In this document: positions 14,773 through 31,845 of the stretch, one piece after another
Numbering within the stretch: position 1 is the first letter of the stretch
How the letters are laid out: each line of letters opens with the position of its first letter
Source of the DNA: an uncultured Gammaproteobacteria bacterium
GTDB lineage: Bacteria > Patescibacteriota > Patescibacteriia > Magasanikbacterales > GWA2-37-8
NCBI GenBank assembly: GCA_964536615.1
Contig: CAZHYG010000001.1
Span: 6,200-70,199 of the forward strand
Direction: 5' to 3'
Length of the DNA stretch: 64,000 nucleotides
Notes under the pieces: generated by a model
Databases searched by the model: none
Told to the model about the DNA's origin: nothing
Seen by the model: the letters and a program-made list of their open reading frames with translations, nothing else
Program-made: the position numbers and the translations under genes

Positions 14773-14779
14773 GTGACCA

Positions 14780-15220: not shown

Positions 15221-15320
15221 ATTTATTTTTAATATTAGCAGAAAAATTGATTATTGACAAACAGGCAGGTGTTTTAAGGATAGTTTGCTTTTTCTTATTT
15301 TTTAGGATAAAATAAGAAAA

Positions 15321-16130: not shown

Positions 16131-16144
16131 AATTTTAACACGCT

Positions 16145-17206: not shown

Positions 17207-17225
17207 TCTTTAGATTATTAAACTT

Positions 17226-17843: not shown

Positions 17844-17864
17844 TTATTTTAATTTTTACTGCAT

Positions 17865-18191: not shown

Positions 18192-18197
18192 TTTTTT

Positions 18198-18407: not shown

Positions 18408-18415
18408 ATAATTGT

Positions 18416-21400
18416 ATGCTTAGAGAGCGTGTTTCCAACTCTGACTTTAAAGGCGCAGAAATCGGTAAGTATAAAAAAGGCAAGCGAGTAGTCGTTAATA
18501 TTGAAGGTGAGTGGCAAGTGCGAGAACTGTTTGCGCCTGCGGCTGTTGAAAAAGGCAAGCTAAAATTGACTCTTGATAAAGGTGATGAAATTTTTGTCGA
18601 TTCTCCTCCGAGAATTGTAAAATTTTCCAAGTTAGACACTTTAACCGACGATCGAAAAGGCGGGGATTTTGTTGTTCATGGTGCATTCGCCACTCAGGAT
18701 GGTCGTTTGGAATATAATCTTACAACACCTGACGGCAAGATGTATAAGGGTATACCGGAAGAATTTTTGGATGTCTGGTCAAAAACTGTGGCTATGGAAG
18801 CTGAGGTTGAAGATTTAGAAAATAATATACAAGCATTAGGGGTAAAAGCACAGAAAGATTTACATGAAAAAATAAGCAAATTAAAAACTGCCTTGATGGG
18901 TACTTTTGAAAATTTACCCAAAGATTTTAAGGCAATGACAAAATCAGGAAAAAAAGATGTTGCTAGTGCAGTCAAAAAAATTAAATCTTTGCATGCCGAG
19001 GCCGCTCGGCATATTGATGATTTGAGATTAAAAATAGACGAAGCTAAAGTTAATGGTGCCGGTAAAAAATCAAAAATCGAGCACACAGAGACTGATACAG
19101 ACAAGCAAACTAGAAAAGCGCAGGAAGAAGGCTCTGCCGCGTTTAAAACAAAAAAAGCAAAATCAGTGAAAGAGTTCATGGGAAAACGGCTGGAACAGGA
19201 CAAAGAAGAAGCGTTGGCAGATAAAAAAAGATCTGTTCGCAATGAATACGAGAGTAAATTAAAAGAATGGGAAGATCAAAAAAGAGCCATGGCTCGTCCG
19301 GAACCAAAACAGCCAAATTATAAGGCTATTCAGCTTGACGCTGTTGAAGAAAACACTATTAGGCAAGATTACGATAAGCAACTTGCACTAATGCCTCAAA
19401 AAATGGAATACGAAAATGCTATGGATATTAATCGCCACCTCGAGGATGGTTTTAACAGTCGGCGTACGCAGAAGCTTGATGAAGCCCTTGATGCAAAAAG
19501 AAAAAACACTAAAGATCCTAAGGCTGCTTTGAGCAAGCGCGAAGTAGCGATGGTTGAGAAAGAATTGCGCACCACATTGATTGGAGAGGCGGTAGAAGAT
19601 TTTTCAGAATTGAGTGCTGCGTTAGAGCAAAAAAGAAAAGCAATGGCTGCAAAAGAAGCAGACCCGAAAGCTGCCGGGGTTGATCCAAATACAGGCGATT
19701 ATCTATCTACTCGGCAAGAAGAAATCAACGCTCGTTTGTACGATGCTTTTATAAAAGAAAGAATTAAGCAGTACGATGTTGCTCGAAAAGATTTAGAAAG
19801 AGAAGAAAAAGATGAAATTTTTAAAGCATTAGAAAATAAAAAAGAAGAAGCGTATAAAAAGTTTTTAGCAGACAGCGCCGAGTGGGATATAGAAAAAAGC
19901 AAGCTTAAGAAGCGGCCTGATGAGCCTGTGGAAAGCAGTGTTGTATTAACAAAAGACGAAGAAAAACAGGTGGCTGCAAAATCAAAATTTGAAACTATTA
20001 AATATTTGGTTGATCAAAATACAGACCTTAAGTTTAGTTTGGTTAAAAAAAGAATGGAGAAAGCAAAAACAGATCCAGATAAAGAAAATATCATTACATT
20101 ATCAAACGGTGAATCTGATTATAATGATGATAAAAAAGATGAAGTAAATGCCGAATTATTTGATGAGGTGTTGGCAGATTGGGAAAAAACCTATGAGTTT
20201 AAAGAGAAAGAACACGATGCCAATGCAGAAATTTTTGATTTTACAAATGAAATAAATAAAATAAATGCTGCTGCGCTGGACTGTGAACAGTCTATTCCGC
20301 AAACAAATGGAGTACCGGATAAGCCGTACCAGGGAGTGTATAAGGAGCTGTTAAAAAATAAAAAAGATTTTGCCAACACTCTGACAGCGTTAAGCGGTAT
20401 AGATGCTGCTAAAAAAGCAGGTTTCATTGGAGCGGCCGATGGGCAAGAAGAGTTGTATAAGGCGCGCGAGCGAGAGGCCGAAAAAATTAATAAAATTATA
20501 GATGGGCTTACTCAACAAATAGAAAAAATAAAAACCATTGAAAGCTTTGGCGAGAAATTCGAACAAACAGAAAAAATGACGCCAATAGATTTGCGGTCTT
20601 CTTTGGTGGAAAGAATTTTGAGTTTAAATGTTGATCAAGCCAAAAAAGCTATGAAAGCGTTGTATCGCGGTGATGCAACGGAAGAATTTAAACAACTAAT
20701 TGGCGATACGCCGCCGGCTGGAATTTCTGAAGTTGAGTTACGCAAGGCAGGCATCAAAGATTGGGCTGATTTTAAAGAATTGTGGGATGCAAGATTGGCC
20801 AAGGAGGTGGCGGTCAATATGGAAGAAATGGCTAAGCAAAGAATTTTACAAAAAGTGGCCGAAGCTATGGATAGCCTTAGTGGTGTTTGGGAAAAAATTA
20901 AAGCCATAAAAGGACAAATGACACTTCGGGCTGGCTTAAGTGCTCTGCTTGTGGGCGGATCGGCAATGACGGCTCGAACACTGCTGGGTAGTTTTTCTGA
21001 AGTGCTTCATAGTGCGGCGGTAATGGCAGGCGGCGCGGCAGGCGGCGCGGGAAAATGGTTGGTGGGCAGTAAGCTTTTTGGTAAAGACAGCGCCTGGGGA
21101 AAAGATGGCGCAAAAGCGATGCAAAAATTACAAGCCAAAACAGCAGATGATTTAGTTGATAGTATTGTGGACGAAGCTTTTGAATTTGCGTTTTCTCCGG
21201 TTCAGCCGCCAGTGCAAAAAGGATTTTTTAGAAAAATGTGGTCTTTTGTTTCTAAACCAAGCGAGCAGGAATTTACTAAAACGCAGCATAAAAAACACAT
21301 GCTTGACGGCATGCCAATGATGAGTTCGGTAATTGCCGGTACGATTAGAGATATAACCGGAGGCAGTCTTGAAGTAGAAACTGCTGAAGGCAAAGTTACC

Positions 21401-24127
21401 TTAAGTGGCGCAAATAGAATTAAGTTTGAAAAAGCATTAGGTCGTCTAGAAACCCAAAATCCCGAAGAAGAGCAGGTTAAAAATCTAGCTTTGGTTTTTG
21501 CAAAAATGTCTCAAAAAGGCGATGAGCTGCAAGCTCAAATGAAACATTTGGGACCAGGCAAGGCATCGCTTGGCGATACATGGCTGCAAAATTATTCTGG
21601 TCGCGGCAGTTTGGGCAAATCGGTGGCGATAAATTCCGCTTTAGCAGGTGTATTTTTGGCATCGAGTACAGCCAGGGCTGCGTTTGGCGCGGTTGTTGGT
21701 GCGTATAGTGGCTATAAAACCGGCGAAAGAATGTTTGCCAAAAAAGAACAGCAAGTTGCTAAAGAAAAATTGTTGGAAAAAATTTCTCATTTTACTTACG
21801 GAGTCCAATCATTTGAGGCGCTTACTCCTCAAGCAAAAATTGCGTTTAAAGCTGATTTAATATACCTTAAGAAATTCTTACACGGAAATGCCGCTCAGGA
21901 AGATCTATTGGCCGCAGTGCAAATTACCGAAGCTGGGCCAGTCGTAGACCAAATGCTTCTTTCGCAGATAGAAAGCTTGATTCACGAGGCGGAAGATATG
22001 GGTGCGTTAATAGAAAATAAAGAAGATGGGATGAATTTAGAAAAAGTATTGGCAGCCATGCAAGAATATCAGGGCAAAATTTCTGAAAAAGATAAGAAAA
22101 AAGTTGGTGAGCGATTTGCAAGATGGCTGGCAAAAGGAGTGTACAAGTTTGGCGGTGCCGCAGTCGGTGGCGCGGCAAGTGCTGGAATATATCTTGTTGG
22201 CGGGCCATTAATTGGAAAGGCTGTTGGAGCATTGCGTTCAAAACTTGGTTTGGGTGCAACACATGATCTTGTATCAACTGAGTCTGCAAAGAACATTGCT
22301 GTAGAACATATCGACGGATTAGAATCATACCAAGACAACTCCAGTGCTTTAGAGCGTGCAGATGGTTTGGTTTCGTATCCAGACGGTTCCGGTTTTGCAG
22401 AAAATATAAATCCAGATGTAGCAAACTTTGCAGCCGAACATCATTTAAGCGAACATTCAGCCCAATATCTAAATCAATTTGGTTCGTTGCAAACACACCC
22501 AGAATCGCTTAATAGAATTTTGGAAGCAAGCCATATTGGAGGTGATGGCCGCTCGCATTTTACCGGCAGTAAATTAGATAATCTTATAGAAGTTGGCGGT
22601 GAGCGTCGCGCTGTGATTTTTGAAGAGTTGTTAAAACATGATAAGCAAGCAGCGATTAAATTTTTGGAAGATCAAGATTTTAGCAAACAGCACCTTACCC
22701 ACCTGGCTGTTTTTGCAGACAAAAAAGGCCATGTTGACTTTGTTAAATTTGTAGAGAAATATAATCCAAATGATAAAAAAATGTCCTTGGCTTTGTTTAA
22801 AGCCATGCAAGGTAAAGAAAACACCGAGCTGGCCAATGCTGGGTTTGTCCGTGCAGCCACAGCTGATCATACAGGCCGAATAGTTCAAGTAAAAGGCGGG
22901 GTGGAATATTTCGGCTTGGATAAAAATGGTAAGCCAATTTTGAGCGGAGATGGCCAGGTGATGGTGAGAGAAACTATTTTGAGGACAGGTTCAGCAGCTG
23001 AACATAACGAAGGTTTAAGTACTGATGATAAATTATGGGCAAATGCCAATGTTATGCGCGGTATGCGGGCTGACGGCACCCCATTTGAAGGTGATACCAA
23101 AAATGTTTTGCCTGAATTTTCACCTAAAGGTATCGCTCAGTTTATGCAAGGCGAAGCAGATAAAGCTCAGTTTGCTAAAATGGGCGAAGAGCATATCAAT
23201 GCGTTGGACAGACCGATTGGTAGAAATGATGTTACTCTTACCAAATTTAACGTAACCCATTTACTGGATAAAGAGGGTAATCCAATTGAGCGAAGGACTT
23301 TTGCAGAACAGCCTGCCGAATCTCCGGTACCAGATAATGCGTTCAAACCACTTAAGAATCCTCAAACAAGCAAAGAAATTGCTGGTAAAACAGCCGCTAT
23401 CTATACTGCTGATAAACTAGTGGAAAGAGGGCAGGTTGTGGGAAATAGAGGGGTGAGAAGTAGTTCTCCTTCAGAAGAAATGGTTTCTCGAAGTGAATTT
23501 GCGCAAACTGAAGAAGTTAATTCTTCTCCTTTGGTTGAAGCTGGATCAGAAACAAAACCCGCAGCAAAAGTTGAAACTACACCCAATACTTTAGAGTTAA
23601 CGGAAGCGCAGAGAGATTATGTAGATAAGCTAAATAATGTATTTAGATCTCTTACTGAAAATGAAATCGGTCAAAAAATGGACTCATACACGTTTAAAAA
23701 TGATTCTGAAAATGTAATATATAATGCTATAACTAATGAGTCAGCTTTTAAAAACTTCAGAGACTATATTGAAAGCCTTTCAAATAATAAGCAACCAAGC
23801 TTAAGTCAGCAAGAAATAAGAGAGTTTGACAACCTGTTAAAAACTTACGATGCTGGTAACCAAAATTGGTACAAGATGATTAAAAATGACGAGCTTCGCT
23901 TGATGCTTGATCCTAGTGACGCATCTATGGTTGCAAATAATAGTCATGCAGTAAGAATTTGGGACCAGGAAAAACAGGAAGAGTTGTTTATTACCAACCC
24001 TCAGTATACTTTTGTAACAAAAGGTGATAGCCTCTTGAAAATGGATGGTGATAGAGTGGTGGATACATGGAAAAACTACAAAGAAGCGATTGCTACCGCT
24101 AGACAGTCTTCAAATATGAATAGATAA
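18416..24127 (+). CDS. Giant (1903 aa) K/E-rich coiled-coil low-complexity protein with Gly/Ala-rich amphipathic segments and a ~500-aa globular C-terminal region
   Basis: Uninterrupted 5.7-kb ORF in host-like codon usage. Segments such as AGGAAGGAGKWLVGSKLFGKDSAWGKDG and GGAAVGGAASAGIYLVGGPLIGKAVGAL. A strong hairpin terminator lies downstream. Confidence 0.75.
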   Translation: MLRERVSNSDFKGAEIGKYKKGKRVVVNIEGEWQVRELFAPAAVEKGKLKLTLDKGDEIFVDSPPRIVKFSKLDTLTDDRKGGDFVVHGAFATQDGRLEYNLTTPDGKMYKGIPEEFLDVWSKTVAMEAEVEDLENNIQALGVKAQKDLHEKISKLKTALMGTFENLPKDFKAMTKSGKKDVASAVKKIKSLHAEAARHIDDLRLKIDEAKVNGAGKKSKIEHTETDTDKQTRKAQEEGSAAFKTKKAKSVKEFMGKRLEQDKEEALADKKRSVRNEYESKLKEWEDQKRAMARPEPKQPNYKAIQLDAVEENTIRQDYDKQLALMPQKMEYENAMDINRHLEDGFNSRRTQKLDEALDAKRKNTKDPKAALSKREVAMVEKELRTTLIGEAVEDFSELSAALEQKRKAMAAKEADPKAAGVDPNTGDYLSTRQEEINARLYDAFIKERIKQYDVARKDLEREEKDEIFKALENKKEEAYKKFLADSAEWDIEKSKLKKRPDEPVESSVVLTKDEEKQVAAKSKFETIKYLVDQNTDLKFSLVKKRMEKAKTDPDKENIITLSNGESDYNDDKKDEVNAELFDEVLADWEKTYEFKEKEHDANAEIFDFTNEINKINAAALDCEQSIPQTNGVPDKPYQGVYKELLKNKKDFANTLTALSGIDAAKKAGFIGAADGQEELYKAREREAEKINKIIDGLTQQIEKIKTIESFGEKFEQTEKMTPIDLRSSLVERILSLNVDQAKKAMKALYRGDATEEFKQLIGDTPPAGISEVELRKAGIKDWADFKELWDARLAKEVAVNMEEMAKQRILQKVAEAMDSLSGVWEKIKAIKGQMTLRAGLSALLVGGSAMTARTLLGSFSEVLHSAAVMAGGAAGGAGKWLVGSKLFGKDSAWGKDGAKAMQKLQAKTADDLVDSIVDEAFEFAFSPVQPPVQKGFFRKMWSFVSKPSEQEFTKTQHKKHMLDGMPMMSSVIAGTIRDITGGSLEVETAEGKVTLSGANRIKFEKALGRLETQNPEEEQVKNLALVFAKMSQKGDELQAQMKHLGPGKASLGDTWLQNYSGRGSLGKSVAINSALAGVFLASSTARAAFGAVVGAYSGYKTGERMFAKKEQQVAKEKLLEKISHFTYGVQSFEALTPQAKIAFKADLIYLKKFLHGNAAQEDLLAAVQITEAGPVVDQMLLSQIESLIHEAEDMGALIENKEDGMNLEKVLAAMQEYQGKISEKDKKKVGERFARWLAKGVYKFGGAAVGGAASAGIYLVGGPLIGKAVGALRSKLGLGATHDLVSTESAKNIAVEHIDGLESYQDNSSALERADGLVSYPDGSGFAENINPDVANFAAEHHLSEHSAQYLNQFGSLQTHPESLNRILEASHIGGDGRSHFTGSKLDNLIEVGGERRAVIFEELLKHDKQAAIKFLEDQDFSKQHLTHLAVFADKKGHVDFVKFVEKYNPNDKKMSLALFKAMQGKENTELANAGFVRAATADHTGRIVQVKGGVEYFGLDKNGKPILSGDGQVMVRETILRTGSAAEHNEGLSTDDKLWANANVMRGMRADGTPFEGDTKNVLPEFSPKGIAQFMQGEADKAQFAKMGEEHINALDRPIGRNDVTLTKFNVTHLLDKEGNPIERRTFAEQPAESPVPDNAFKPLKNPQTSKEIAGKTAAIYTADKLVERGQVVGNRGVRSSSPSEEMVSRSEFAQTEEVNSSPLVEAGSETKPAAKVETTPNTLELTEAQRDYVDKLNNVFRSLTENEIGQKMDSYTFKNDSENVIYNAITNESAFKNFRDYIESLSNNKQPSLSQQEIREFDNLLKTYDAGNQNWYKMIKNDELRLMLDPSDASMVANNSHAVRIWDQEKQEELFITNPQYTFVTKGDSLLKMDGDRVVDTWKNYKEAIATARQSSNMNR

Positions 24128-24148
24128 TTGATAATAACTAAAAAGTTA

Positions 24149-24188
24149 GAAAAACCTTGGTGAAAACCTAAGGTTTTTCTTTTATTTT
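24149..24188 (+). terminator. Rho-independent terminator after the giant gene
   Basis: GAAAAACCTTGG-tgaaaa-CCTAAGGTTTTTC followed by a T-rich tract. Confidence 0.65.
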
Positions 24189-24220
24189 AGCCAAAAATAC
24201 CCAAAAATACCTTCTAGCTA

Positions 24221-24249
24221 TTGACAAAAATAACAATGTATGGTATAGT
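24221..24249 (+). promoter_or_regulatory. Near-consensus promoter TTGACA-N17-(TGg)TATAGT directed into the high-GC island
   Basis: ctaTTGACAaaaataacaatgtatggTATAGTg. Confidence 0.55.
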
Positions 24250-24277
24250 GCTCTATCGTTTGAAAGATGGCAGTATT

Positions 24278-24360
24278 GCGAGAGGTATTGCCAAACCTAT
24301 TAAACGAATGAATAGTCATGTTAGTTTTTTACAACCTCTCTCGCAAAGTGAGGTTTTACT
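24278..24360 (+). promoter_or_regulatory. Leader region with mutually exclusive hairpins (attenuator-like) and a possible 25-codon leader ORF
   Basis: GCGAGAGGT (24278-86) pairs with ACCTCTCTCGC (24334-44). This overlaps a terminator-like AACCTC-tctcgcaaagt-GAGGTT plus a U-run (24333-24360). The ORF ATGaatagtcat... (24308) spans both. Confidence 0.35.
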
Positions 24361-24492
24361 GTTTCTAATTAGCGCGTCAATGTAATAGTTGATGTGCGAA
24401 CCGGTAACGGTAACACTCGTGCGCTTCGTGTGGTCGAGTGACCTTGCGAAGCAAACGGGAGTGAGGCGCCTTAGATGCGCCTTGGAGGTTCC

Positions 24493-25224
24493 ATGCACAC
24501 GCCTTCCTCGGGTACGCAGCAGATCACTGGCCAGCAGGCCGCCGTCAAGACCCAGGTCATCGATCGTGGCGGCTGGTCGAGCTGGGCCAGGCTCGCCTTC
24601 GTCGCGCTGGCTGTGATGCTCATCACCGGGCTCATCGCCTGGTCGGTGGTGGGTGGCGGCAAGAAGCCGTCCGCCGCGGGTGGCAGCGTCCACCACGCCG
24701 CCGACGGTGGTGTTGCCAGCGACGACAAGCCGGTCGTCGAGGCCACGAAGCCGCCCACGGTCGCGCTCGACCTGAGCCCGCTCAACACGAGCTTGAACGA
24801 GCTCAACACCACCTTGGGTGGCATGGGCGATAGCATCGCCAGCAAGGTCGGCGAGAAGATGGACGAGAGCAACGAGGTGATCGTCCAGAAGCTCGACCAG
24901 CTGCTCGCGCAGCAGGCCAAGCCGGATGATTCGTCCGGTGGCTCGGCAGGGGACAAGACCGACGACACCAAGGTCAACGGTGGCAGTGATGCCAAGCCAC
25001 CGTGCGACGATCATCTCAAGGCGCTCACGATCGAAGATCGTGTTGGCGCGCTAGAGACGTGGCGTACCGGGGTCGACAAGACCCTCAAGCGCCACACCCG
25101 GCAGATTCGTCGGATCAACGACCGCCTCGGTCAGCTCAGTGGTGCGCAGGTCACCGACCTGCCCGGCTACAAGACCGCGGTGGCGACCCACAGCGCTGTC
25201 GTGCACCTGAAGTACGACAAGTAG
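24493..25224 (+). CDS. Membrane-anchored (single N-terminal TM) coiled-coil protein; high-GC foreign gene
   Basis: GGAGGT SD 5 nt upstream. GC3-rich codons. TM WARLAFVALAVMLITGLIAWSVV, then a hydrophilic helical region. The antisense ORFs on the other strand are R/D-rich and judged spurious. Confidence 0.6.
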   Translation: MHTPSSGTQQITGQQAAVKTQVIDRGGWSSWARLAFVALAVMLITGLIAWSVVGGGKKPSAAGGSVHHAADGGVASDDKPVVEATKPPTVALDLSPLNTSLNELNTTLGGMGDSIASKVGEKMDESNEVIVQKLDQLLAQQAKPDDSSGGSAGDKTDDTKVNGGSDAKPPCDDHLKALTIEDRVGALETWRTGVDKTLKRHTRQIRRINDRLGQLSGAQVTDLPGYKTAVATHSAVVHLKYDK

Positions 25225-25573
25225 ATTCCTCCTCAACCAGGCTGTCGTCAGATCGAGAAATCGAACTGACAACGCCTCAAGAGGGGAAGACGGGATGTTC
25301 TTCGCAAGAAGAGCATCCCGGGAGAAAATCATCTTCTTAAAACATATCATGTATTAGGAATATGATAAGCTCTAACAAAGCGAAAAGAAAATATAGTTCT
25401 TTAAAATTAAAAAACAAACAAAAGTAACCGTTGTTCCGTATTTATTATATTTATTAATATATATAAATAAATATATATAGTAAGTACGGAGCGACGGTTA
25501 AAAACACCGTCACCAACAACTCCCAGGCCCAACGGCCTGAAACCGGCCGTTGTGGCCAACCTTTGCCGGCTCT
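25217..25573 (+). repeat. 357-bp intergenic cassette, copy 1 (identical to 26458..26814)
   Basis: Begins at the last codons (caagtag) of the upstream gene. Contains two GNRA-tetraloop hairpins (GTCAGATCGA-GAAA-TCGAACTGAC; GGATGTTCTTC-GCAA-GAAGAGCATCC) and a TATCAT/ATGATA inverted repeat. A 44-bp AT-rich block is flanked by the imperfect inverted repeat aaccgttgttccgta/tacggagcgacggtt, followed by GACGGT-taaaaac-ACCGTC and CAACGGCC-tgaaacc-GGCCGTTG hairpins. Confidence 0.85.
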
Positions 25574-25601
25574 AATGGAGCCAGAATTGCGAGTTCAGTC
25601 A

Positions 25602-26465
25602 ATGAAGACGATCCTTTGCGTGATGATGCTTGCCATCGCAACCTTCGGCGGCAACGCCAAGGCACAGCCCCGGGTCACCGTGACGCAGGACGTGCCGCCC
25701 CCGGAGCCCTGTGCTCCGGGCCAGCCGCGTGACACGGTCTCGCACGACGCCTCGGGCGTCGACGAGACCATCAAGGTCAACGGCCTCGAGACCCCGTGTC
25801 TCGAGCTCACGGTCCACCTGCCCAAGGCGATGGATCCGGCGCTTGCGCCGATCATCCCCACGGCCCCCATCGACAACGATGGTGGCCTGGATCGCCACGG
25901 CACGAGCACCAACGATCTCATCGAGATCTCGCGCACGGCTGCCTCGGCGGCCAACGAGGTCGCAAAGGCTCAGGCGCGGTGGAACTTCGGGCTGGCGAGC
26001 CAGGTGCTCGCGGTCTCGCACAAGGGCACGACCGCCTCGTATGGCCTCCTCGGCCTGTACGGTGTACGTGCCACCCGGGCCACGCTCGTTCAGCTGCAGG
26101 GTGGTCTCGGCAAGGACAGCGAGGGGAATCTCGCTATCGGCGCCGCGCTCATGGCGGGATACAAGGTCGGTGAGCGTGCTGCTGTTGGCATCGCGCTCAC
26201 CGGCACCGATTCCATCGATCAGAGGGGAGACAAGGATCGCGAGGTCCTCATGCTCCGTTCGGTCGGGGTCGGCCCCAGCGTCACGATGACGTTGGGCAGC
26301 ACCGTCAACGTCACCATCGCTGGTGGCGTGGCATGGAGCGGTAAGCCCATTGATGGGCGTCGTGTGGACGGTGTCCTGGTCGAAGAGCCGGGGCGTTCTT
26401 ACGCCTTCGGTGGCTACGGCACGGTCACGCTGAACCTCGGCCTCAAGGGCCTGTTCAGCAAGTAG
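25602..26465 (+). CDS. Secreted protein (signal peptide, beta-rich C-terminal half); high-GC foreign gene
   Basis: MKTILCVMMLAIATFGGNAKA-QP signal peptide. Alternating hydrophobic beta-strand-like pattern (VTMTLGSTVNVTIAGGVAWSG...YGTVTLNLGLKGLFSK). GC3-rich. Confidence 0.6.
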   Translation: MKTILCVMMLAIATFGGNAKAQPRVTVTQDVPPPEPCAPGQPRDTVSHDASGVDETIKVNGLETPCLELTVHLPKAMDPALAPIIPTAPIDNDGGLDRHGTSTNDLIEISRTAASAANEVAKAQARWNFGLASQVLAVSHKGTTASYGLLGLYGVRATRATLVQLQGGLGKDSEGNLAIGAALMAGYKVGERAAVGIALTGTDSIDQRGDKDREVLMLRSVGVGPSVTMTLGSTVNVTIAGGVAWSGKPIDGRRVDGVLVEEPGRSYAFGGYGTVTLNLGLKGLFSK

Positions 26466-26814
26466 ATTCCTCCTCAACCAGGCTGTCGTCAGATCGAGAA
26501 ATCGAACTGACAACGCCTCAAGAGGGGAAGACGGGATGTTCTTCGCAAGAAGAGCATCCCGGGAGAAAATCATCTTCTTAAAACATATCATGTATTAGGA
26601 ATATGATAAGCTCTAACAAAGCGAAAAGAAAATATAGTTCTTTAAAATTAAAAAACAAACAAAAGTAACCGTTGTTCCGTATTTATTATATTTATTAATA
26701 TATATAAATAAATATATATAGTAAGTACGGAGCGACGGTTAAAAACACCGTCACCAACAACTCCCAGGCCCAACGGCCTGAAACCGGCCGTTGTGGCCAA
26801 CCTTTGCCGGCTCT
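26458..26814 (+). repeat. 357-bp intergenic cassette, copy 2
   Basis: Base-for-base the same as 25217..25573 by reading, again starting at the caagtag stop region of the preceding gene and ending at gccggctct just before the next gene's RBS. Confidence 0.85.
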
Positions 26815-26834
26815 TCGGAGCCATGGAGAAAGAC

Positions 26835-28185
26835 GATGAAGAAGCTGATGATGTATCTGGTGTGCGTGGCGGCCCTCACGGGCTGCCTCCTCGAGAATGG
26901 CAAGGTCGTCGACGAGACGACCGACGCTGGTGTCGACGCCTCCGAGAGCAAGTGTACGGTCACCATCCGAGCGACCGACAGCATCGCCAACGAGAACGGC
27001 GACACCGCCATGGTGCAGTTCGAGCGGAGCAACTGCTCCCTCGACAAGCAGCTCGAGGTCAAGTTCGACCTCAGCGGTACGGCCAGCAGCTCCGACTACG
27101 TGGGGCTCGCGGAGTGGTACGCCCTCATCCCTGCCGGTCAGACCGAGGCCACCATCGTGGTGGTCCCGTTCAACGACACGATCGACGAGAGCGACGAGAC
27201 CCTGATCTTCACCATCCGTCCGGAGCCCCACCTCATCGTGGGTGCGCCGGCCGCGGCGACGGTGACGATCACCGATGACGACAGCCCGCCGCCCACGCCG
27301 TTCCTGAACTTCAGCTGCAGCCCCAACGGCATCACTGCCGGCGGTAGCAGCACCTGCACGTGGACTTCGAACGCCACGGCGTGCACGCTCTCCGGTGGCC
27401 AGTTCGGCTCCGGGGTGGCTCAGGCGGGTAACGGTTCGGTCGTGGTGAGCAACATCACCACGACCACGACTTTCGGCATGACCTGTAACAACGGTCAGAC
27501 CAAGTCGTCGACGGTGACGGTCAATACGCAGCAGCAGTGCACTGGCAACGGTACCCTGACGGCGAACACCCTGTTCATCGTCGTGGGGAGCCCCATCGAC
27601 TTGGACGCGACGTTCAACTGTCCGTCCGGTACGATCGCCCGAGTCGAGTTCAAGGTGGGTAGCACCACCCTCTGCACCGACACGAGCGCGGCCTACCACT
27701 GCGACTGGGACAATGCCACTGTCGGCACGCACACCGTCATCGCGACGGCGTACTCGGCGAGTGGCACCCAGCTCCAGCAGACCAACCCCCTCCAGATCGA
27801 GGTGGCGCAGACGTCGCAGCAGGTGTCGTGTCACGGCCTCGGCCTCTACTTCTCCAACACCCAGGTGAACAACATCACCCGGTGCACGAAGTGGAGCGCT
27901 ACGGGGTCGGGTACCGACATCGCCAAGTCGACGTTCGTGGATGGCGGTCTGGGCGCTTGCGCCCTGACCTGCTACGACCTCACGGGTAACACGGTCCTGC
28001 CGCTGGCGGTGACCGGTGTCTGGCTGCAGAACGGAACGAGCGACGTCACCCGGTGGTACACCAGTGGCTGCGCGCGGCTCCCGTGGCACCCCGCTGCCGA
28101 GCCCGACCAGGCTGGTGGCGCCTGGGACCGGCTTTGCGATCGTTCGGTCGCCAGCCTGAGTGGTCCGCCCAACACCAACCAGTAG
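26835..28185 (+). CDS. Lipoprotein with a Calx-beta-like domain and Cys-rich Ig-like repeats; high-GC foreign gene
   Basis: GGAG SD. MKKLMMYLVCVAALTGC lipobox (LTGC). Calx-beta-like motif DYVGLAEWYALIPAGQTEATIVVVPFNDTIDESDETLIFTI. Many Cys and Thr/Ser-rich beta segments. Confidence 0.6.
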
Positions 28186-28502
28186 TGGTGGACAAAGGTT
28201 CCCGAACCTAAAAAATCGGAAATGTCCGCGCCATTGATGTGAATCGAGGGTGTGGCAAGAGTCTTATCCGCGGGTTCTTCGGAACCCGCGCGATTGAATC
28301 AGTTTCTTACTTGTATAGAATAGGGAACTGATACTGATCGAAAACAATTAATACTAGTGTCAAAAAATAGAAAGTAGGTTACAATAGACCTACTTTAAAA
28401 TTATCATTCGAGATTTGAAAATAGTTTATTTTTAAATCTCGGGCAATAATACCCGACAAGTTCGGCTCATTTCCCGCCTGATGCGGGTGAATCGGGGTTG
28501 CA

Positions 28503-29249
28503 ATGAAGATTTTCTGCTGTCTGGTGCTAGTCATCACCGCTTGCTCCTTTAACCCGTCGGGTTCGCTCGACGGAGAGGTAGATGCAATGGGTGATGGAGT
28601 AGTCCTCACCCCCGACGCCCAGATCGATGCGCCCATCGATGCTCCGCCGCCCTTGGTGGCGAGCATTGTGGGAGACTGCTACGTCCGCCCGCAGGCTCCG
28701 CCTGCCGACGGGGTGACCGTGGGTCGTCCCAAGACCCTGGTCTGCCTCGCGGAAGCGAGGCAGTGTACGGCGACCAACAGCCGCGTTCCGAGCGCTCCGC
28801 TTCCCATGACCCCACCGGTCCAACCTGGTGTGGGCGAGTGGGAGGTTTCGTTCACCCCGGTGTTCACCGGTGTGAACGAGTTCACCTTCACCTGTGAAGG
28901 TGATGTGGGTAGTGTGGCGACTGCAGGACCGCTGGCACTTCATGCCATGTCCTTGCAGATCACCGAAGGAGTTTCGGTGATCGACCAGAGCCTCGGGCAG
29001 TACCAACTGCTCAATCGCAACGGTCGAATCCGGCTCGTCTGGGGTATCCCGGACGATCCAACGCCCCAAACGTGCGGCAACTCGGTTTCCGGGCTGCCAA
29101 CGGTCAACATCGGAAGTGGAGGGCGTCCGTGCGTGGGCGAAATCTACGACCTGCTTGTTCCAACGAACGGACCAGCGGGGACAGTGGTTCTTCGCTTCTC
29201 GTCGGCGTTGTATGTGGGGTCTGTGTCTGTTGCAGTGCCGGCCTCGTAG
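28503..29249 (+). CDS. Lipoprotein, paralog 1 of a tandem pair; high-GC
   Basis: MKIFCCLVLVITAC lipobox-like signal. 611 bp (28604..29214) are identical to 29474..30084. Confidence 0.6.
   Translation: MKIFCCLVLVITACSFNPSGSLDGEVDAMGDGVVLTPDAQIDAPIDAPPPLVASIVGDCYVRPQAPPADGVTVGRPKTLVCLAEARQCTATNSRVPSAPLPMTPPVQPGVGEWEVSFTPVFTGVNEFTFTCEGDVGSVATAGPLALHAMSLQITEGVSVIDQSLGQYQLLNRNGRIRLVWGIPDDPTPQTCGNSVSGLPTVNIGSGGRPCVGEIYDLLVPTNGPAGTVVLRFSSALYVGSVSVAVPAS
28604..29214 (+). repeat. Tandem duplication unit, copy 1 (611 bp identical to 29474..30084)
   Basis: Direct comparison of the two blocks shows identity through ...cggcgttgtatg, then divergence; the period is 870 bp. Confidence 0.85.
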
Positions 29250-29387
29250 GGTTGGAGGGTGTAGTAAGAGGAAGAAATTCGAGGTGTAGACAGTGTTGGC
29301 AGGGTATCTTCCTCACAGAAATTTTTCCATCATTATTTGGTGGTGGAAAATAAGCTGTGCAAATCAAGCAAGAGGCCAGGAGGCCAC

Positions 29388-30119
29388 ATGTCTCTCAGAA
29401 CATTGTTTGCAGTGTTGTTGACGATAGTTTGTGGTGGCGGATGTAATCTGGTCTTCGGACTGGATGAGGTTCGCCTCACCCCCGACGCCCAGATCGATGC
29501 GCCCATCGATGCTCCGCCGCCCTTGGTGGCGAGCATTGTGGGAGACTGCTACGTCCGCCCGCAGGCTCCGCCTGCCGACGGGGTGACCGTGGGTCGTCCC
29601 AAGACCCTGGTCTGCCTCGCGGAAGCGAGGCAGTGTACGGCGACCAACAGCCGCGTTCCGAGCGCTCCGCTTCCCATGACCCCACCGGTCCAACCTGGTG
29701 TGGGCGAGTGGGAGGTTTCGTTCACCCCGGTGTTCACCGGTGTGAACGAGTTCACCTTCACCTGTGAAGGTGATGTGGGTAGTGTGGCGACTGCAGGACC
29801 GCTGGCACTTCATGCCATGTCCTTGCAGATCACCGAAGGAGTTTCGGTGATCGACCAGAGCCTCGGGCAGTACCAACTGCTCAATCGCAACGGTCGAATC
29901 CGGCTCGTCTGGGGTATCCCGGACGATCCAACGCCCCAAACGTGCGGCAACTCGGTTTCCGGGCTGCCAACGGTCAACATCGGAAGTGGAGGGCGTCCGT
30001 GCGTGGGCGAAATCTACGACCTGCTTGTTCCAACGAACGGACCAGCGGGGACAGTGGTTCTTCGCTTCTCGTCGGCGTTGTATGGCGGATCAATCAGTGT
30101 GGAGGTCCCGGCCTCGTGA
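29388..30119 (+). CDS. Lipoprotein or secreted protein, paralog 2 of the tandem pair; high-GC
   Basis: AGGAGG SD 5 nt upstream of ATG (MSLRTLFAVLLTIVCGGGC). The body is identical to paralog 1 except the N-terminal signal region and the last ~10 residues. Confidence 0.6.
   Translation: MSLRTLFAVLLTIVCGGGCNLVFGLDEVRLTPDAQIDAPIDAPPPLVASIVGDCYVRPQAPPADGVTVGRPKTLVCLAEARQCTATNSRVPSAPLPMTPPVQPGVGEWEVSFTPVFTGVNEFTFTCEGDVGSVATAGPLALHAMSLQITEGVSVIDQSLGQYQLLNRNGRIRLVWGIPDDPTPQTCGNSVSGLPTVNIGSGGRPCVGEIYDLLVPTNGPAGTVVLRFSSALYGGSISVEVPAS
29474..30084 (+). repeat. Tandem duplication unit, copy 2
   Basis: Identical to 28604..29214. Confidence 0.85.
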
Positions 30120-30327
30120 TTCGCACAAGGAGAAGCACCGAGGTTGAGGTTGTATATGGCAAGCGCTTCTCCTGTCTCGCAATATTATTATCAAAAATTG
30201 GTAATAATATCTGAGATAAAAAAACAGACAAACCAATCTATAATTGTTCATCAAACTTGGTGAATAACCATAGACAGATTTATCTGCCTAACAAAATTAC
30301 CATCCGATTACCCGAATAAATAATTTA

Positions 30328-31845
30328 TTACTTATTTAGGTGACTCTCCCGGATGGTTTTTTGTTGTGAAATCCAATATCCCCATATTGCCCATAACCAC
30401 CAGATTACTGGTGTGTGGCGCAGCATGTTATCGGAAACGCTTAGGGTAAGATAGATAAAAATACTGGCAATAAAAATAATATTAAGCCAGTTATTTTTTA
30501 AACCAAATATAATTTGTTGATAGAGTAGAGTAATAAAAATAAAAACAAACAATACCAAACCAACAACCCCTGATTCAAAAGCAACTTTAATGTAGTCGTT
30601 GTGAGCTTCGGAAGTGTTATCCCATAGATTTTCAACATCTTTATTATCGTCCCAAACGCGAGAAAATGTTCCGTATCCATAACCAACTATCCAATGTTCT
30701 TTAAATAACGGTATGATTTTTGCCGCCAAATTGGTGCGCCAGCGAATGGAATCGGCATCTTGGTTGCGACTGGTAAGACGAGCAATGAGTGTATTTGCTT
30801 GCAAGTTTACATTAAAATTATTTATTAGATATCTATTTGCTGGATAAAACAGACCATAAAACAGCACAATTGCCGCGCACGTATAAAACAATAGTTTTCT
30901 GTAGTACATTGCACCAACAAAACAGCCAAGTATAACTGTTCCAATCCAAGCAATCCGTGTGTACGTAAGGGCAATTATGCAAATCAGGGTAAAAATAATG
31001 AGTTTTATTTCCGGTTCTTGTTTTAAATCAAAAAAGTCCATTTTTTTAAATCCATGTATGCTGATTCTTGAAATCAGTTCGGATACTGCCAGCAATAATA
31101 GCGTAAGCGCAAAAGTTGCTAAGACGTTGGGGTGGGCAAAGGTGCCGTAGATGCGGTTTGCCACATCGTCAATATCCACACCTGTTTTGGTTATAAATTG
31201 GTATGCGCCAACGGCAAAAGGAATAATGGCTGCGCCAATAGCGCTGGCAAGAAAATATTTTTTAAATGCCAGTGGGTTTTTTTGGGACATGACATATGTA
31301 ATGGCAAGCAAACCGAATAAATTGCTTAGTTTAAGTGTTTCAATTATAGTTGCGGACATTGAATATGTATAGAATACCGAGATGCCGCACCAGAGAATAA
31401 ATGCTGCCCAGATGCTGGCTAGCGGCAATTTTTTTGCATACTGGTAATTTTGCGCGATAAATAAAATTGTCCATACTAGTAGAAATACCGATAGCGCCGC
31501 GTTAATATTAAAATTAAAAAATCGGATAGAAAATAAGTTGTAATCTCGCCAATAATCCATGGCCGGACGCAGCGCTAACAGAATTAAAATAAAATATTCT
31601 CCTAGTATTTTTTGTAAAATAATAAAACCGGCCATCAAAAATGCCAGAGTATCAAGGTTGGTAAAAGGATTGATTAAAATAAACAACAATAAAAATATGA
31701 CAAGTATCGCGCTGTAAGAAAAGTTTTTTATATGCATCATATATAGATAATCTTTTCTTGAGTATAGCATAATAATATGATAAACTAAAGATATTAAAGA
31801 GATATGCCTGTGCAGAGAAAAAAACATAAAAAAGCCGCACGACAT
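30328..31845 (-). CDS. O-antigen ligase/polymerase family (Wzy_C-like) polytopic membrane protein
   Basis: ~12 TM helices. A conserved-looking ...SEAHNDYIKVAFESGVVGLVLFVFIF... segment (HN...E.G..G) is typical of the O-antigen ligase family. Confidence 0.55.
   Translation of the reverse strand: MSCGFFMFFSLHRHISLISLVYHIIMLYSRKDYLYMMHIKNFSYSAILVIFLLLFILINPFTNLDTLAFLMAGFIILQKILGEYFILILLALRPAMDYWRDYNLFSIRFFNFNINAALSVFLLVWTILFIAQNYQYAKKLPLASIWAAFILWCGISVFYTYSMSATIIETLKLSNLFGLLAITYVMSQKNPLAFKKYFLASAIGAAIIPFAVGAYQFITKTGVDIDDVANRIYGTFAHPNVLATFALTLLLLAVSELISRISIHGFKKMDFFDLKQEPEIKLIIFTLICIIALTYTRIAWIGTVILGCFVGAMYYRKLLFYTCAAIVLFYGLFYPANRYLINNFNVNLQANTLIARLTSRNQDADSIRWRTNLAAKIIPLFKEHWIVGYGYGTFSRVWDDNKDVENLWDNTSEAHNDYIKVAFESGVVGLVLFVFIFITLLYQQIIFGLKNNWLNIIFIASIFIYLTLSVSDNMLRHTPVIWWLWAIWGYWISQQKTIRESHLNK

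What the first reader, a model, noticed from the sequence alone, without database searches (positions are those of the whole stretch)
24221..30180. ~5.9-kb, ~65%-GC island of five envelope-protein genes embedded in a ~37%-GC genome, driven from a host-like AT-rich promoter and leader
Composition changes abruptly at ~24.37 kb and ~30.12 kb. Inside it there are five co-directional genes with strong GC3 bias and AGGAGG/GGAGG Shine-Dalgarno sites. The products are a TM-anchored coiled-coil protein, a secreted beta-rich protein, a Calx-beta lipoprotein and two paralogous lipoproteins. This style is typical of high-GC Gram-negatives such as Myxococcota or other Proteobacteria. The surrounding genes use AT-rich codons, weak SDs and CPR-like content. 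The intergenic regions inside the island contain extremely AT-rich blocks that look host-like rather than donor-like, which argues against a simple chimeric-contig artefact and for a domesticated horizontally acquired surface-protein module. An engineered construct is the alternative. What these five envelope proteins do together is unknown.
Basis: partly seen in the sequence, partly recalled or inferred. Interest (0 to 1): 0.85.

Follow-up and report, generated by a model that had tools for sequence, protein, structure and literature searches.

The report
GC-rich surface-gene cluster kept in AT-rich genome
A tiny symbiotic-type (CPR) bacterium with a 41%-GC genome carries five surface-protein genes at 64% GC, and its distant relatives have kept the same genes equally GC-rich. 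The contrast is therefore actively maintained, not the fading mark of a recent gene transfer.

Summary
Five co-directional genes (24493-30119) are 61-66% GC (GC3 0.68-0.89) in a 40.7%-GC window, separated by 22-28%-GC spacers. It is not an assembly chimera or an engineered construct: independent assemblies cross both junctions. The host is a Patescibacteria (Magasanikbacteria-like) bacterium.

The 'recent transfer from a high-GC Gram-negative' reading is not supported. P2 and full-length P3 have homologues only in this clade, and the other three match no profile library or phage/plasmid DNA.

The same five genes sit at the same syntenic site in relatives whose flanking genes are saturated at silent sites, yet they remain GC-rich there. 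Polarised substitutions give an equilibrium GC3 of about 0.7 in the island against about 0.33 in the flanks. Neutral decay would predict at most 0.55, but 0.73-0.79 is observed. Island genes keep Shine-Dalgarno sites that host genes lack.

Conserved structured spacer modules, with compensatory base changes, evolve in concert within each genome, and alleles are exchanged between strains.

Best reading: a clade-specific surface module whose transcribed units are held GC-rich by a GC-favouring fixation bias, probably selection on the RNA or coding sequence. The cause is unproven and the function is unknown.

The parts
24148..24180 (+). Terminator-like hairpin plus T-run that ends the upstream 1903-aa gene; it marks the left edge of the unit.
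   Evidence: 13-bp stem followed by TTTATTTTAG. Conserved in L009, L011 and L015.
24221..24249 (+). Sigma-70-type promoter TTGACA-17-TATAGT with an upstream TG.
   Evidence: 11 of 12 matches. Both hexamers are invariant in four lineages, including L009.
24254..24372 (+). Conserved leader RNA. It has a nested 5' stem-loop (24256-24307) and a weak terminator-like hairpin (24333-24355) followed by UUUUACUGUUU. The loop segment UUGCGAGAGG is complementary to the downstream CCUCUCUCGCAA. It is a candidate attenuator.
   Evidence: Alignment A3: nearly invariant from the promoter to column ~240 even against L009. The fold is the same in the window and in L009, z = -3.2. No Rfam family matches. It occurs only at the head of the island in every locus. 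Function is inferred.
24373..24492 (+). P1 5' UTR (56% GC) with Shine-Dalgarno GGAGG at 24484-24488.
24493..25224 (+). P1: 243 aa, N-terminal cytoplasmic tail, one transmembrane segment (about residues 29-57), Gly/Ala/Asp-rich linker, conserved C-terminus ...VHLKYDK. GC3 is 0.85. It evolves fast (33% aa identity to L009).
   Evidence: dN/dS is 0.47-0.51 and lowest in this frame. No Pfam, NCBIfam, PHROG or PADLOC hit.
25225..25601 (+). Intergenic module IG1. It contains 3' UTR hairpins with GAAA/GCAA tetraloops (25226-25320), an AT-rich spacer (22% GC), a long hairpin at 25426-25499 (22 bp, three invariant G.U pairs that pair only on the + strand, and a variable AT loop holding a -10-like TATAGT), and a GC-rich 5' UTR hairpin (25524-25557).
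   Evidence: Repeat D1. Folds have z = -8.2 and -3.9. 12 compensatory pairs against 4.8 +/- 1.4 in shuffles, 0 of 500. One compensatory change in the long hairpin in L020. The motifs occur only in IG1 and IG2.
25602..26465 (+). P2: 287 aa, Sec signal peptide (…AKA|QPRV), a small beta domain with 2 conserved Cys, a helix, then eight long beta-strands. GC3 is 0.83.
26466..26835 (+). Intergenic module IG2, a copy of IG1 (96% identical over the whole length and 100% over 300 nt). The long hairpin is at 26667-26740.
26836..28185 (+). P3: 449-aa lipoprotein (LTGC). It has a Calx-beta-like N-terminal domain, two Ig/FN3-like domains (the second is Big_7), and a nearly invariant Cys-rich C-terminal domain of about 130 aa from no known family. 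GC3 is 0.89.
   Evidence: In the AF2 model only residues ~150-325 are confident. Foldseek finds FN3/Ig tandem hits. The C-terminal domain has no significant match in the PDB (one marginal phmmer hit, E 8e-4, no stretch passing on its own) and none in Pfam.
28186..28502 (+). Intergenic module IG3, built on the same plan but with different sequence. It has 3' hairpins, including a UUCG-loop hairpin at 28266-28294. A promoter-like GTGTCA-17-TACAAT lies at 28357-28385, with its -10 box in the loop of hairpin 28371-28396. An AT-rich long hairpin lies at 28407-28442 and a 5' UTR hairpin at 28457-28500.
   Evidence: z = -3.3 and -7.1. Conserved down to L018.
28503..29249 (+). P4: 248-aa lipoprotein (ITAC), 9 Cys, GC3 0.69.
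   Evidence: dN/dS is 0.09. It is a paralogue of P5.
29250..29387 (+). Short spacer IG4 (46% GC) with Shine-Dalgarno AGGAGG before P5.
29388..30119 (+). P5: 243 aa, a paralogue of P4 with a different signal peptide (…CGGGC). 611 nt are identical to P4. GC3 is 0.68.
   Evidence: Within-genome P4-P5 identity (0.73-0.94) exceeds the identity between deep lineages (0.39-0.45), which indicates concerted evolution.
30129..30172 (+). 3' hairpin GGAGAAGC…GCTTCTCC that closes the island. In L009 the same element follows both P4 and P5.

Best explanation
**What it is.** This is a clade-specific cell-surface gene module of a Magasanikbacteria-like CPR bacterium. It is inherited at a fixed place inside a cell-envelope locus, in the order Wzz-like, giant ORF, island, Wzy_C, GHL15. 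It encodes one membrane-anchored protein, one secreted protein with an eight-stranded beta-barrel-like domain, and three lipoproteins.

**How it is probably expressed (inferred).** Transcription starts at a strong sigma-70-type promoter and passes through a conserved attenuator-like leader RNA. The genes are separated by conserved structured modules. Each module has 3' hairpins with stable tetraloops, a short AT-rich spacer with promoter-like boxes, a long hairpin and a structured GC-rich 5' UTR. These modules most likely stabilise or process the gene-sized transcripts, or re-initiate transcription.

**Why it is GC-rich.** The GC-richness is not a decaying trace of recent transfer. It is a maintained state of the transcribed units (5' UTR, CDS and 3' UTR). 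Substitutions towards G/C are fixed more often, and those towards A/T less often, than in the neighbouring host genes. This keeps GC3 near 0.7-0.9 over a time in which host silent sites were fully randomised.

**Most likely cause (inferred, not shown).** Selection acts on the RNA or coding sequence itself, through mRNA structure or stability, or through codon- and SD-dependent expression in a host that otherwise uses AU-rich, SD-less mRNAs. An ancient transfer from an unknown high-GC donor remains the plausible origin. Alleles and spacer modules are exchanged by recombination within and between strains.
For: **Shown: real and conserved.**
- Independent assemblies span both junctions.
- The same five genes lie in the same synteny in L009, L013 and L015-17. 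Partial copies occur in L011/12, L018, L019/20 and L014. All have 56-69%-GC genes and 26-45%-GC spacers.
- Flanks of the window against L009 are 56-78% identical in protein. Their 4-fold-site difference is 0.64-0.72, against a saturation value of 0.74.

**Shown: composition is maintained.**
- In a two-state model the flanks keep no strong/weak (G/C versus A/T) memory (0.016; CI -0.06 to 0.086). Neutral decay from 90-100% GC would leave at most 0.53-0.55, but 0.79 and 0.73 are observed.
- Polarised third-position changes in the island: 87 weak-to-strong changes at 234 weak sites and 137 strong-to-weak changes at 964 strong sites. This gives an equilibrium GC of 0.72.
- In the flanks: 210 at 1233 and 230 at 679, giving 0.33. 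Binomial p = 1e-27.
- There are 92 G<->C changes, so the sites turn over but stay G/C.

**Shown: the effect is confined to the gene units.**
- The edges are sharp and there is no GC3 gradient in the flanking genes.
- The UTR parts of each unit are 50-60% GC.
- Codon usage is extreme: A at third positions is 1-3%, and Lys is AAG in 100% of cases against AAA in 84% of host cases.
- SD motifs occur at 18 of 25 island starts against 0 of 29 host starts.

**Shown: coding and under constraint.** dN/dS is lowest in the annotated frame, at 0.09-0.51.

**Shown: RNA structure.** 12 compensatory pairs against 4.8 +/- 1.4 in shuffles, 0 of 500. The G.U pairs form only on the + strand.

**Shown: recombination.** IG1 and IG2 are 100% identical within L009 but 76% identical between L009 and the window. 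P4 and P5 are more alike within genomes than between deep lineages. L013 and L015 have near-identical flanks (4-fold difference 0.01-0.07) but P2 alleles with 0.35.

**Shown: host phylum.** The nearest named LigA relatives are Candidatus Magasanikbacteria, at 75-79%.
Against: - The cause of the GC-favouring bias is not identified. Nothing here separates selection on RNA from biased gene conversion or from a local mutational bias.
- There is a modest net excess of G/C-to-A/T changes (137 against 87), so some decay is going on. Equilibrium GC (0.60-0.80, depending on the filter) lies below present GC.
- Parsimony polarisation is biased in skewed compositions.
- Silent divergence in P2 and P3 is below that of the flanks (4-fold difference 0.30-0.44 against 0.64-0.72 to L009). 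This fits constraint but also fits later exchange between lineages.
- Relatives were found through the island's own proteins, so lineages without the island, or with an AT-rich version too diverged for word-based search, could have been missed.
- There are no expression data. The promoter, attenuator, processing roles and operon structure are all inferred.
- The protein models are of low confidence (pLDDT 52 and 58).
Confidence: 0.55

Rival explanations
1. GC-biased gene conversion. The locus is a recombination hot spot for allele exchange between strains and for conversion between repeats. Repair of the resulting heteroduplex DNA favours G/C, and this drives and holds GC high.
For: - Recombination is evident. 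L013 and L015 carry mosaic P1/P2 alleles.
- IG1/IG2 and P4/P5 evolve in concert.
- In L018 the spacer module plus signal peptide was copied from P2 to P3.
- The AT-to-GC fixation bias affects silent sites, and first and second codon positions are also at a higher GC equilibrium.
Against: - There is no GC3 gradient into the flanking genes, and the edges coincide with the transcribed gene units.
- The variable AT-rich loops and spacers inside the island stay at 22-28% GC.
- P4 and P5, the genes that demonstrably convert, have the lowest GC3 (0.68 against 0.83-0.89).
- From general knowledge, not tested here: a 45-point GC3 difference is far larger than reported recombination-associated GC effects in bacteria.
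Confidence: 0.2
2. One reading: a recently acquired island from a high-GC Gram-negative donor (Myxococcota or Proteobacteria) that is merely domesticated with host promoters and is still decaying towards host composition.
For: - Codon usage is typical of genomes of about 65% GC, and canonical SD sites are present.
- P2 has an OMP-like eight-stranded barrel model.
- There is a slight net excess of GC-to-AT changes.
- An ancient transfer is still the simplest origin.
Against: - No homologue exists outside the clade among 5.8 billion clusters or 1.84 billion representatives. There is none in plasmids or phages.
- The island is present at the same site in relatives with saturated silent divergence, and P4/P5 are themselves saturated between lineages.
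- The neutral decay model predicts at most 0.55, against the observed 0.73-0.79.
- There is no integrase, transposase, adjacent tRNA or flanking direct repeat.
Confidence: 0.07
3. Repeated re-import. The CPR cell takes up DNA of a high-GC host by natural transformation and keeps overwriting these genes with host alleles.
For: - Allele replacement is seen.
- The window encodes a type IV prepilin peptidase.
- From general knowledge: CPR bacteria are thought to be naturally competent.
Against: Every contig carrying a homologue shows the CPR-type AT-rich spacer modules. No homologue was found in a GC-rich context in any collection searched.
Confidence: 0.04
4. Artefact: an assembly chimera, contamination or an engineered construct.
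For: Exact 366-nt and 611-nt repeats and 'promoter plus terminator' cassettes look designed.
Against: - Both junctions and the interior are reproduced in independent assemblies from at least six samples.
- Diverged natural versions exist with compensatory RNA changes.
- Long contigs of 109-754 kb run through the island.
Confidence: 0.01

Closest known systems
Horizontally acquired genomic islands and the amelioration model (Lawrence & Ochman 1997; cited from my own knowledge)
   Same: There is an abrupt compositional contrast, foreign-type codon usage and foreign translation signals. The genes encode accessory surface proteins.
   Different: There are no mobility genes, no tRNA or direct-repeat borders and no identifiable donor. 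The island sits at a fixed syntenic position across deep divergence. Its composition is not relaxing to the host value.
GC-biased gene conversion in recombining bacterial genes (Lassalle et al. 2015; cited from my own knowledge)
   Same: There is an AT-to-GC fixation bias in a locus with clear recombination.
   Different: The magnitude is about 45 GC3 points. The edges are sharp and fall at the boundaries of the gene units. AT-rich variable spacers are retained. The lowest GC is found in the converting paralogues.
Operons with intercistronic stabiliser or processing hairpins, such as REP elements in malEFG, the puf operon and RNase III sites in phage T7 transcripts (cited from my own knowledge)
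   Same: Stable hairpins lie directly after each stop codon, a long stem lies between genes, and a structured 5' UTR lies before each gene.
   Different: Processing has not been shown. The modules also contain promoter-like boxes. The module sequences match no Rfam family.
Small eight-stranded outer-membrane beta-barrels (NspA, OmpW, OmpA/OprF N-terminal domain, OmpX)
Paralogous surface-lipoprotein loci that evolve by gene conversion, such as Mycoplasma Vlp/Vsa and Borrelia Vls/Vmp (cited from my own knowledge)
   Same: Tandem paralogous lipoproteins evolve in concert, the sequences evolve fast, and signal-peptide/5' modules are shared or swapped.
   Different: There are no tandem coding repeats, invertible elements or silent cassette archives. 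These are not homologous families.
Agrobacterium T-DNA (an analogy for the speculative reading only)
   Same: A block of genes is kept with composition and expression signals unlike those of the carrier genome.
   Different: No border repeats, relaxase or secretion system are linked here. No evidence of transfer exists.

Membership tests
Recently acquired mobile genomic island | Atypical composition relative to the genome | tested here: met
   CDS are 64.2% GC against 40.7% for the rest of the window, about 6 SD above background windows.
Recently acquired mobile genomic island | Integrase, transposase or relaxase, a tRNA-adjacent site, or flanking direct repeats | tested here: not met
   Neighbours are Wzz-like, DUF5663, a giant ORF, Wzy_C, GHL15 and PALP. 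The only tRNA is 17 kb away. There are no flanking direct repeats.
Recently acquired mobile genomic island | Patchy presence among relatives, with empty sites | tested here: inconclusive
   The island is present at the same site in every relative retrieved. However, the relatives were found through island proteins, so empty sites could not be sampled.
Recently acquired mobile genomic island | Homologues in a plausible donor lineage | tested here: not met
   nothing was found outside the clade except generic Calx-beta domain hits.
Integron gene-cassette array | Adjacent IntI integrase and attI site | tested here: not met
   No integrase domain occurs in any scanned ORF of the window or in the gene tables of related loci.
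Integron gene-cassette array | attC hairpins with RYYYAAC / GTTRRRY cores; cassettes variable in content and order | tested here: not met
   The arms of the long hairpin read …AGTAACCG… and …GGTTAAAAAC. The cores do not fit when read. Gene order P1-P5 is conserved in all lineages.
OmpA/OmpW/OmpX-type outer-membrane beta-barrel | Match to a sequence family (OMP_b-brl, OmpA_membrane, OmpW and similar) | tested here: not met
   Pfam up to E = 10 for all six family members gives none. A PDB profile search gives none.
OmpA/OmpW/OmpX-type outer-membrane beta-barrel | Eight-stranded antiparallel barrel fold | tested here: inconclusive
OmpA/OmpW/OmpX-type outer-membrane beta-barrel | C-terminal beta-signal ending in an aromatic residue; an outer membrane and BAM machinery in the organism | tested here: not met
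   The proteins end in GLFSK, GLAK, GLLK or GLAN. Presence of BAM or an outer membrane in this genome could not be tested with these tools.
Bacterial lipoproteins (Lgt/LspA substrates) | Signal peptide followed by a lipobox [LVI][ASTVI][GAS]C | tested here: met
   P3 has LTGC and P4 has ITAC. Equivalent boxes occur in all lineages (LGGC, MAAC, VSAC, LTAC). P5 is atypical (GGGC or CAGC). The lgt and lspA genes were not looked for.
Pfam Big_7 (bacterial Ig domain) | Score above the gathering threshold | tested here: met
   P3 residues 249-301 score 38.2 bits against a cut-off of 24.1. The model is confident there.
Pfam Calx-beta | Score above the gathering threshold | tested here: not met
   The score is 20.5 bits against 27. 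Precomputed hits list PF03160 for homologue P0054. It is 'Calx-beta-like' only. The domain is replaced in P0057/58.
Known cis-regulatory RNA or riboswitch (Rfam 15) | Covariance-model match at the gathering score | tested here: not met
   The window has only tmRNA and tRNA at the gathering score. An E-value search of 24100-30400 gives only chance miRNA-like hits on AT hairpins.
Anti-phage defence systems (PADLOC) and phage protein families (PHROGs) | Profile match | tested here: not met

The most novel reading that the evidence does not exclude
The module is directed at the host. An episymbiotic CPR bacterium keeps a cassette of surface or membrane-insertion proteins in the 'language' of a high-GC partner cell: high-GC codons, canonical Shine-Dalgarno sites and an OMP-like barrel that a cell with a single membrane cannot use itself. 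The reason would be that the genes, their transcripts or their products are delivered to, expressed in or exchanged with that partner. Selection in the partner would then hold the composition. This would be a bacterial analogue of T-DNA or of Tir-like receptor insertion.
Probability: 0.06. Interest if true: 0.95.

Novelty: new variant of a known kind. Interest (0 to 1): 0.68.

Why it matters
Compositional islands are routinely read as recent horizontal transfers that decay towards host composition. Here a 64%-GC gene set has stayed GC-rich in a 41%-GC genome for longer than it takes host silent sites to randomise, and there is a measurable GC-favouring fixation bias confined to the gene units. 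This gives three things:

- A clean natural case for asking what can hold local base composition far from the genome's equilibrium: selection on mRNA, biased conversion or something else.
- A warning for HGT dating and for binning or contamination filters in CPR genomes.
- A short list of orphan, fast-evolving, recombining surface proteins, with unusual conserved RNA modules, as candidates for the unknown host-contact machinery of an uncultured Patescibacteria lineage.

Tried and rejected
- **Chimera or engineered construct.** Rejected by independent assemblies and by natural divergence.
- **Minus-strand genes.** JGI called these on L015-17. Rejected by the six-frame dN/dS test and by the signal peptides and lipoboxes.
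- **Donor search.**
  - Word-indexed search of 5.8 billion proteins for P2 and P3.
  - Full HMM scan of 1.84 billion representatives for P2.
  - GTDB genomes: 1 locus among 185,579 species.
  - JGI metagenome contigs: 1 short locus.
  - Plasmids and phages by DNA.
  - Viral contigs for the spacer motif.
  - Nothing was found outside the clade.
- **Family assignment.** Pfam, NCBIfam, PHROGs, PADLOC and PDB sequence searches for P1, P2, P4, P5 and the P3 C-terminal domain returned nothing significant; the only hit was one marginal PDB match at E 8e-4 with no qualifying stretch.
- **Rfam.** Searched for the leader and spacer RNAs. Only chance hits.
- **Integron reading of the spacer hairpins.** Rejected: no integrase, the cores do not fit, and the gene order is fixed.
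- **Leader peptide in the leader.** A 14-codon ORF starts at 24269, but its ATG is not conserved in L009.
- **Leader as a regulon motif.** It occurs only at the head of the island.
- **Structure-based function.** The models are too weak (pLDDT 52 and 58). The P3 C-terminal domain was not modelled. The AFDB library was unavailable.
- **'Gammaproteobacteria' label of MAG CAZLNR01.** Not consistent with LigA or AtpD.

Full report
**1.

In 300-nt windows, GC rises from 0.34-0.38 before 24450 to 0.63-0.68. It falls to 0.36-0.41 in three spacers (about 25.2-25.65, 26.4-26.85 and 28.2-28.5 kb), dips to 0.52 between P4 and P5, and returns to 0.33-0.36 after 30150.

The five CDS are 64.2% GC. The rest of the 64-kb window is 40.7%, with an SD of 0.038 and a maximum of 0.543 for 700-nt windows. 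The unit runs from the terminator of the upstream gene (24148-24180) to a closing hairpin (30129-30172).

Two gene starts needed correction. P1 starts at 24493, which has a GGAGG 4 nt upstream and matches the N-terminus MHTPSSG shared with homologues. P2 starts at 25602.

GC-rich DNA carries long ORFs on both strands, and JGI's gene caller chose minus-strand ORFs in three related contigs. I therefore tested all six frames. In each of the five genes the annotated frame has the lowest dN/dS: P1 0.47-0.51, P2 0.23-0.30, P3 0.31-0.41, and P4 and P5 about 0.10. The flanking genes give 0.05-0.15.

**2. It is not an artefact**

- A 28.8-kb contig from ERZ27283041 covers window positions 8416-25358 and so crosses the left junction.
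- Contigs from SRR34691339, GCA_054404015.1, ERZ27283041 and SRR6837570 cross the right junction.
- Three more contigs cover the interior.
- All are 99.97-100% identical to the window.
- The short-read contigs break at the exact repeats, as expected.
- Contigs of 109, 133, 164 and 754 kb from JGI samples run straight through diverged versions of the island.
- One source project, SRP286056, is municipal wastewater (PMC9405806).

**3. The host**

The window is cellular DNA. It carries tmRNA, tRNA-Asp, SmpB, IF3, L20, LigA, PPDK, MetRS, F-ATPase, MraY, MurB and a prepilin peptidase.

The nearest named LigA relatives are 'Candidatus Magasanikbacteria bacterium' (79% and 75%), then Parcubacteria and Patescibacteria. 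The longest related contigs are 0.75-0.83 Mb, which is consistent with small genomes. The title 'uncultured Gammaproteobacteria' on the one GTDB representative that carries the island looks wrong.

**4. The proteins**

- **P1 (243 aa)** has one transmembrane segment and a conserved C-terminal VHLKYDK.
- **P3 (449 aa)** is a lipoprotein. It has a Calx-beta-like domain that falls below Pfam's threshold, two Ig/FN3-like domains (Big_7, E 2.4e-9), and a Cys-rich C-terminal domain of about 130 aa. That domain is nearly invariant and matches nothing convincingly. In two lineages the N-terminal domain is replaced.
- **P4 and P5** are paralogous Cys-rich lipoproteins.

The neighbours are a Wzz-like protein, DUF5663, a 1903-aa ORF, Wzy_C and GHL15 with FG-GAP repeats. 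This is a cell-envelope neighbourhood. Together this indicates a surface module. The function is unknown.

**5. No donor can be found**

- P2 has six homologue clusters (62-100% identity) among 5.8 billion proteins.
- A full profile scan of 1.84 billion representatives returns only P2's own cluster.
- Full-length P3 relatives number about seven. The remaining hits are Calx-beta domain matches.
- Only 1 of 185,579 GTDB species genomes carries P2.
- Plasmid, phage and viral collections give nothing.
- NCBIfam, PHROGs and PADLOC give nothing.

**6. The island is old and stays in place**

In L009 (a 109-kb contig) the order is SmpB, two ORFs, Wzz, two small ORFs, the giant ORF, P1-P5, Wzy_C, GHL15, PALP and Mur ligase. 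This is the same order as in the window.

Flank proteins are 56-78% identical between the two. Their 4-fold sites differ at 0.64-0.72, where saturation is 0.74.

The island genes in L009 are still 56-65% GC and its spacers 38-45%. GC3 there is 0.85, 0.78, 0.78, 0.59 and 0.62 for P1 to P5. In the window it is 0.85, 0.83, 0.89, 0.69 and 0.68. The flanks have 0.28-0.43.

The same alternation of GC-rich genes and AT-rich spacers is seen in L011/12, L013, L015-17, L018/L014 and L019/L020. In the most distant of these, P3 is down to 44-58% identity.

**7. The composition is maintained, not decaying**

*Two-state model.* At 4-fold sites the flanks retain no strong/weak (G/C versus A/T) memory between the window and L009 (0.016; 95% CI -0.06 to 0.086). 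Under host rates, an island that was 90-100% GC at these sites in the common ancestor should now be at most 0.53-0.55 and most likely about 0.44. It is 0.79 and 0.73.

*Polarised substitutions.* I polarised third-position changes among the window, L013 and L015.

| Region | AT-to-GC changes / A/T sites | GC-to-AT changes / G/C sites | Equilibrium GC3 | Present GC3 |
|---|---|---|---|---|
| Island | 87 / 234 | 137 / 964 | 0.72 | 0.80 |
| Flanks | 210 / 1233 | 230 / 679 | 0.33 | 0.36 |

- Stricter filters give 0.60-0.80 for the island against 0.37-0.43 for the flanks.
- The island's share of AT-to-GC changes is 39%, where host rates predict 11% (p = 1e-27).
- 92 G<->C changes show that the sites turn over but stay G/C.
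- First and second codon positions are also balanced at a higher GC.
- The modest excess of GC-to-AT changes means some decay, or a parsimony bias. The equilibrium is far from the host's either way.

*Codon usage and translation signals.* Codon usage is extreme. A at third positions is 1-3% in P1-P3, and Lys is AAG in 100% of cases against AAA in 84% of host cases. Canonical SD motifs occur at 18 of 25 island starts across lineages but at 0 of 29 host starts.

*Limits of the effect.* GC-richness covers the 5' UTR and 3' UTR parts of each unit (50-60%). It stops within tens of bases. There is no GC3 gradient in the adjoining genes.

**8. Recombination**

- IG1 and IG2 are 96-100% identical within a genome but about 76% identical between the window and L009.
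- P4 and P5 are 0.73-0.94 identical within genomes but 0.39-0.45 between deep lineages. This is concerted evolution.
- L013 and L015 have almost identical flanks (4-fold difference 0.01-0.07) but P2 alleles that differ at 0.35, with 76% aa identity. This is allele replacement.
- In L018, P2 and P3 share an identical 18-aa signal peptide, so the converted module reaches into the CDS.

**9. Non-coding anatomy**

*Promoter and leader.* The promoter is TTGACA-17-TATAGT. It is followed by a leader that is almost invariant, even in L009. The leader folds into a nested stem-loop and a weak terminator-like hairpin with a U-tract. One loop is complementary to the 5' half of the terminator. I infer an attenuator. 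It has no Rfam match and occurs only at the head of the island.

*Spacer modules.* Each spacer follows one plan:

- hairpins with GAAA, GCAA or UUCG loops directly after the stop codon;
- about 80-150 nt at 22-28% GC with promoter-like boxes;
- a long hairpin with a variable AT loop;
- a GC-rich structured 5' UTR.

The 3' hairpins carry 12 pairs with compensatory changes, against 4.8 +/- 1.4 in shuffles (0 of 500) and 0-3 in slid controls. The long hairpin is invariant apart from one compensatory change in L020. Its three G.U pairs can form only in + strand RNA. This argues that transcripts read through it.

Whether the locus is one processed polycistronic RNA or five separate units is not settled.

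**10. Interpretation**

*What is shown.* This is a clade-specific, syntenic, protein-coding surface module with conserved RNA structures. Recombination is active, and a GC-favouring fixation bias is confined to the gene units.

*What is inferred.* The cause of the bias is inferred only. I favour selection on the transcript or coding sequence. The GC-rich state tracks the transcribed units exactly, silent sites in P2 and P3 evolve more slowly than flank silent sites, and these mRNAs also keep SD-led initiation in an SD-less host.

*Biased gene conversion.* This is the main rival, because recombination is evident. Three things argue against it: there is no flank gradient, the variable spacers remain AT-rich, and the converting paralogues have the lowest GC3.

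*Other rivals.* Repeated import from a high-GC host lacks any donor sequence. Recent transfer with neutral decay is contradicted.

*Speculative reading.* The module might be kept in the coding 'language' of a high-GC partner cell. I cannot exclude this and cannot test it.

**11. Limits**

- Relatives were found through the island's own proteins, so there is an ascertainment bias.
- Parsimony polarisation was used.
- There are no expression or population data.
- The structure models are weak.
- P1 and P4/P5 were not searched against the large protein databases.
- The coiled-coil claim for P1 was not tested.

Noticed in passing
window 8805-10243: A second, smaller GC-enriched block holds two genes. 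An 82-aa ORF at 8805-9053 is about 62% GC. A 345-aa ORF at 9206-10243 is about 52% GC and has an acidic C-terminal half. The block has its own GC-rich terminator and a TTGACC-17-TATAAA promoter between the genes. It has no Pfam or NCBIfam match. It may be another compositionally foreign unit in the same genome.
   Followed up: partly
window, 29 gene starts outside the island: Host genes lack Shine-Dalgarno motifs: 0 of 29 have GGAG or GAGG within 22 nt upstream. Their upstream regions are AT-rich. The island genes do carry SDs (18 of 25 starts across lineages).
   Followed up: yes
L013 (CAZLNR010000008.1): This GTDB species-representative MAG carries the island and is titled 'uncultured Gammaproteobacteria bacterium'. 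Its LigA and AtpD affinities and its synteny with the window indicate Patescibacteria. It is probably mislabelled or mis-binned.
   Followed up: partly
L015 5940-8080, L016 5935-8080, L017 5940-8080: The public gene calls place 307-380-aa genes on the minus strand over P1 and P2. These are antisense shadow ORFs of GC-rich DNA. The real genes are therefore missing from those annotations.
   Followed up: yes
L018 35-88 and 1253-1306: P2 and P3 of this lineage start with the identical 18-aa signal peptide MKKILCVMMLVAATFGGG. The repeated spacer module has been copied together with the start of the CDS.
   Followed up: partly
window 26836-27290 versus P0057/P0058: The Calx-beta-like N-terminal domain of P3 is swapped for a different Ig-like segment in two lineages. 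The C-terminal 130 aa (27790-28185) is almost invariant and matches no known family.
   Followed up: partly
window 18416-24127: A 1903-aa ORF with no domain match lies directly upstream and points the same way. It evolves fast (41% aa identity to L009 and 85% to L015) and differs in length between lineages (1481-1925 aa). It is probably a giant surface protein.
   Followed up: no
window 14354-14772 (-): The tmRNA has an unusual 24-residue tag, ANLLSKVKSAVANAFSTNFAPVMA. It lies next to smpB.
   Followed up: no
window 28371-28396 and 25426-25499: The -10-like boxes (TACAAT, TATAGT) sit inside the loops of conserved hairpins in two different spacer modules. This recurring arrangement has no explanation so far.
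   Followed up: partly
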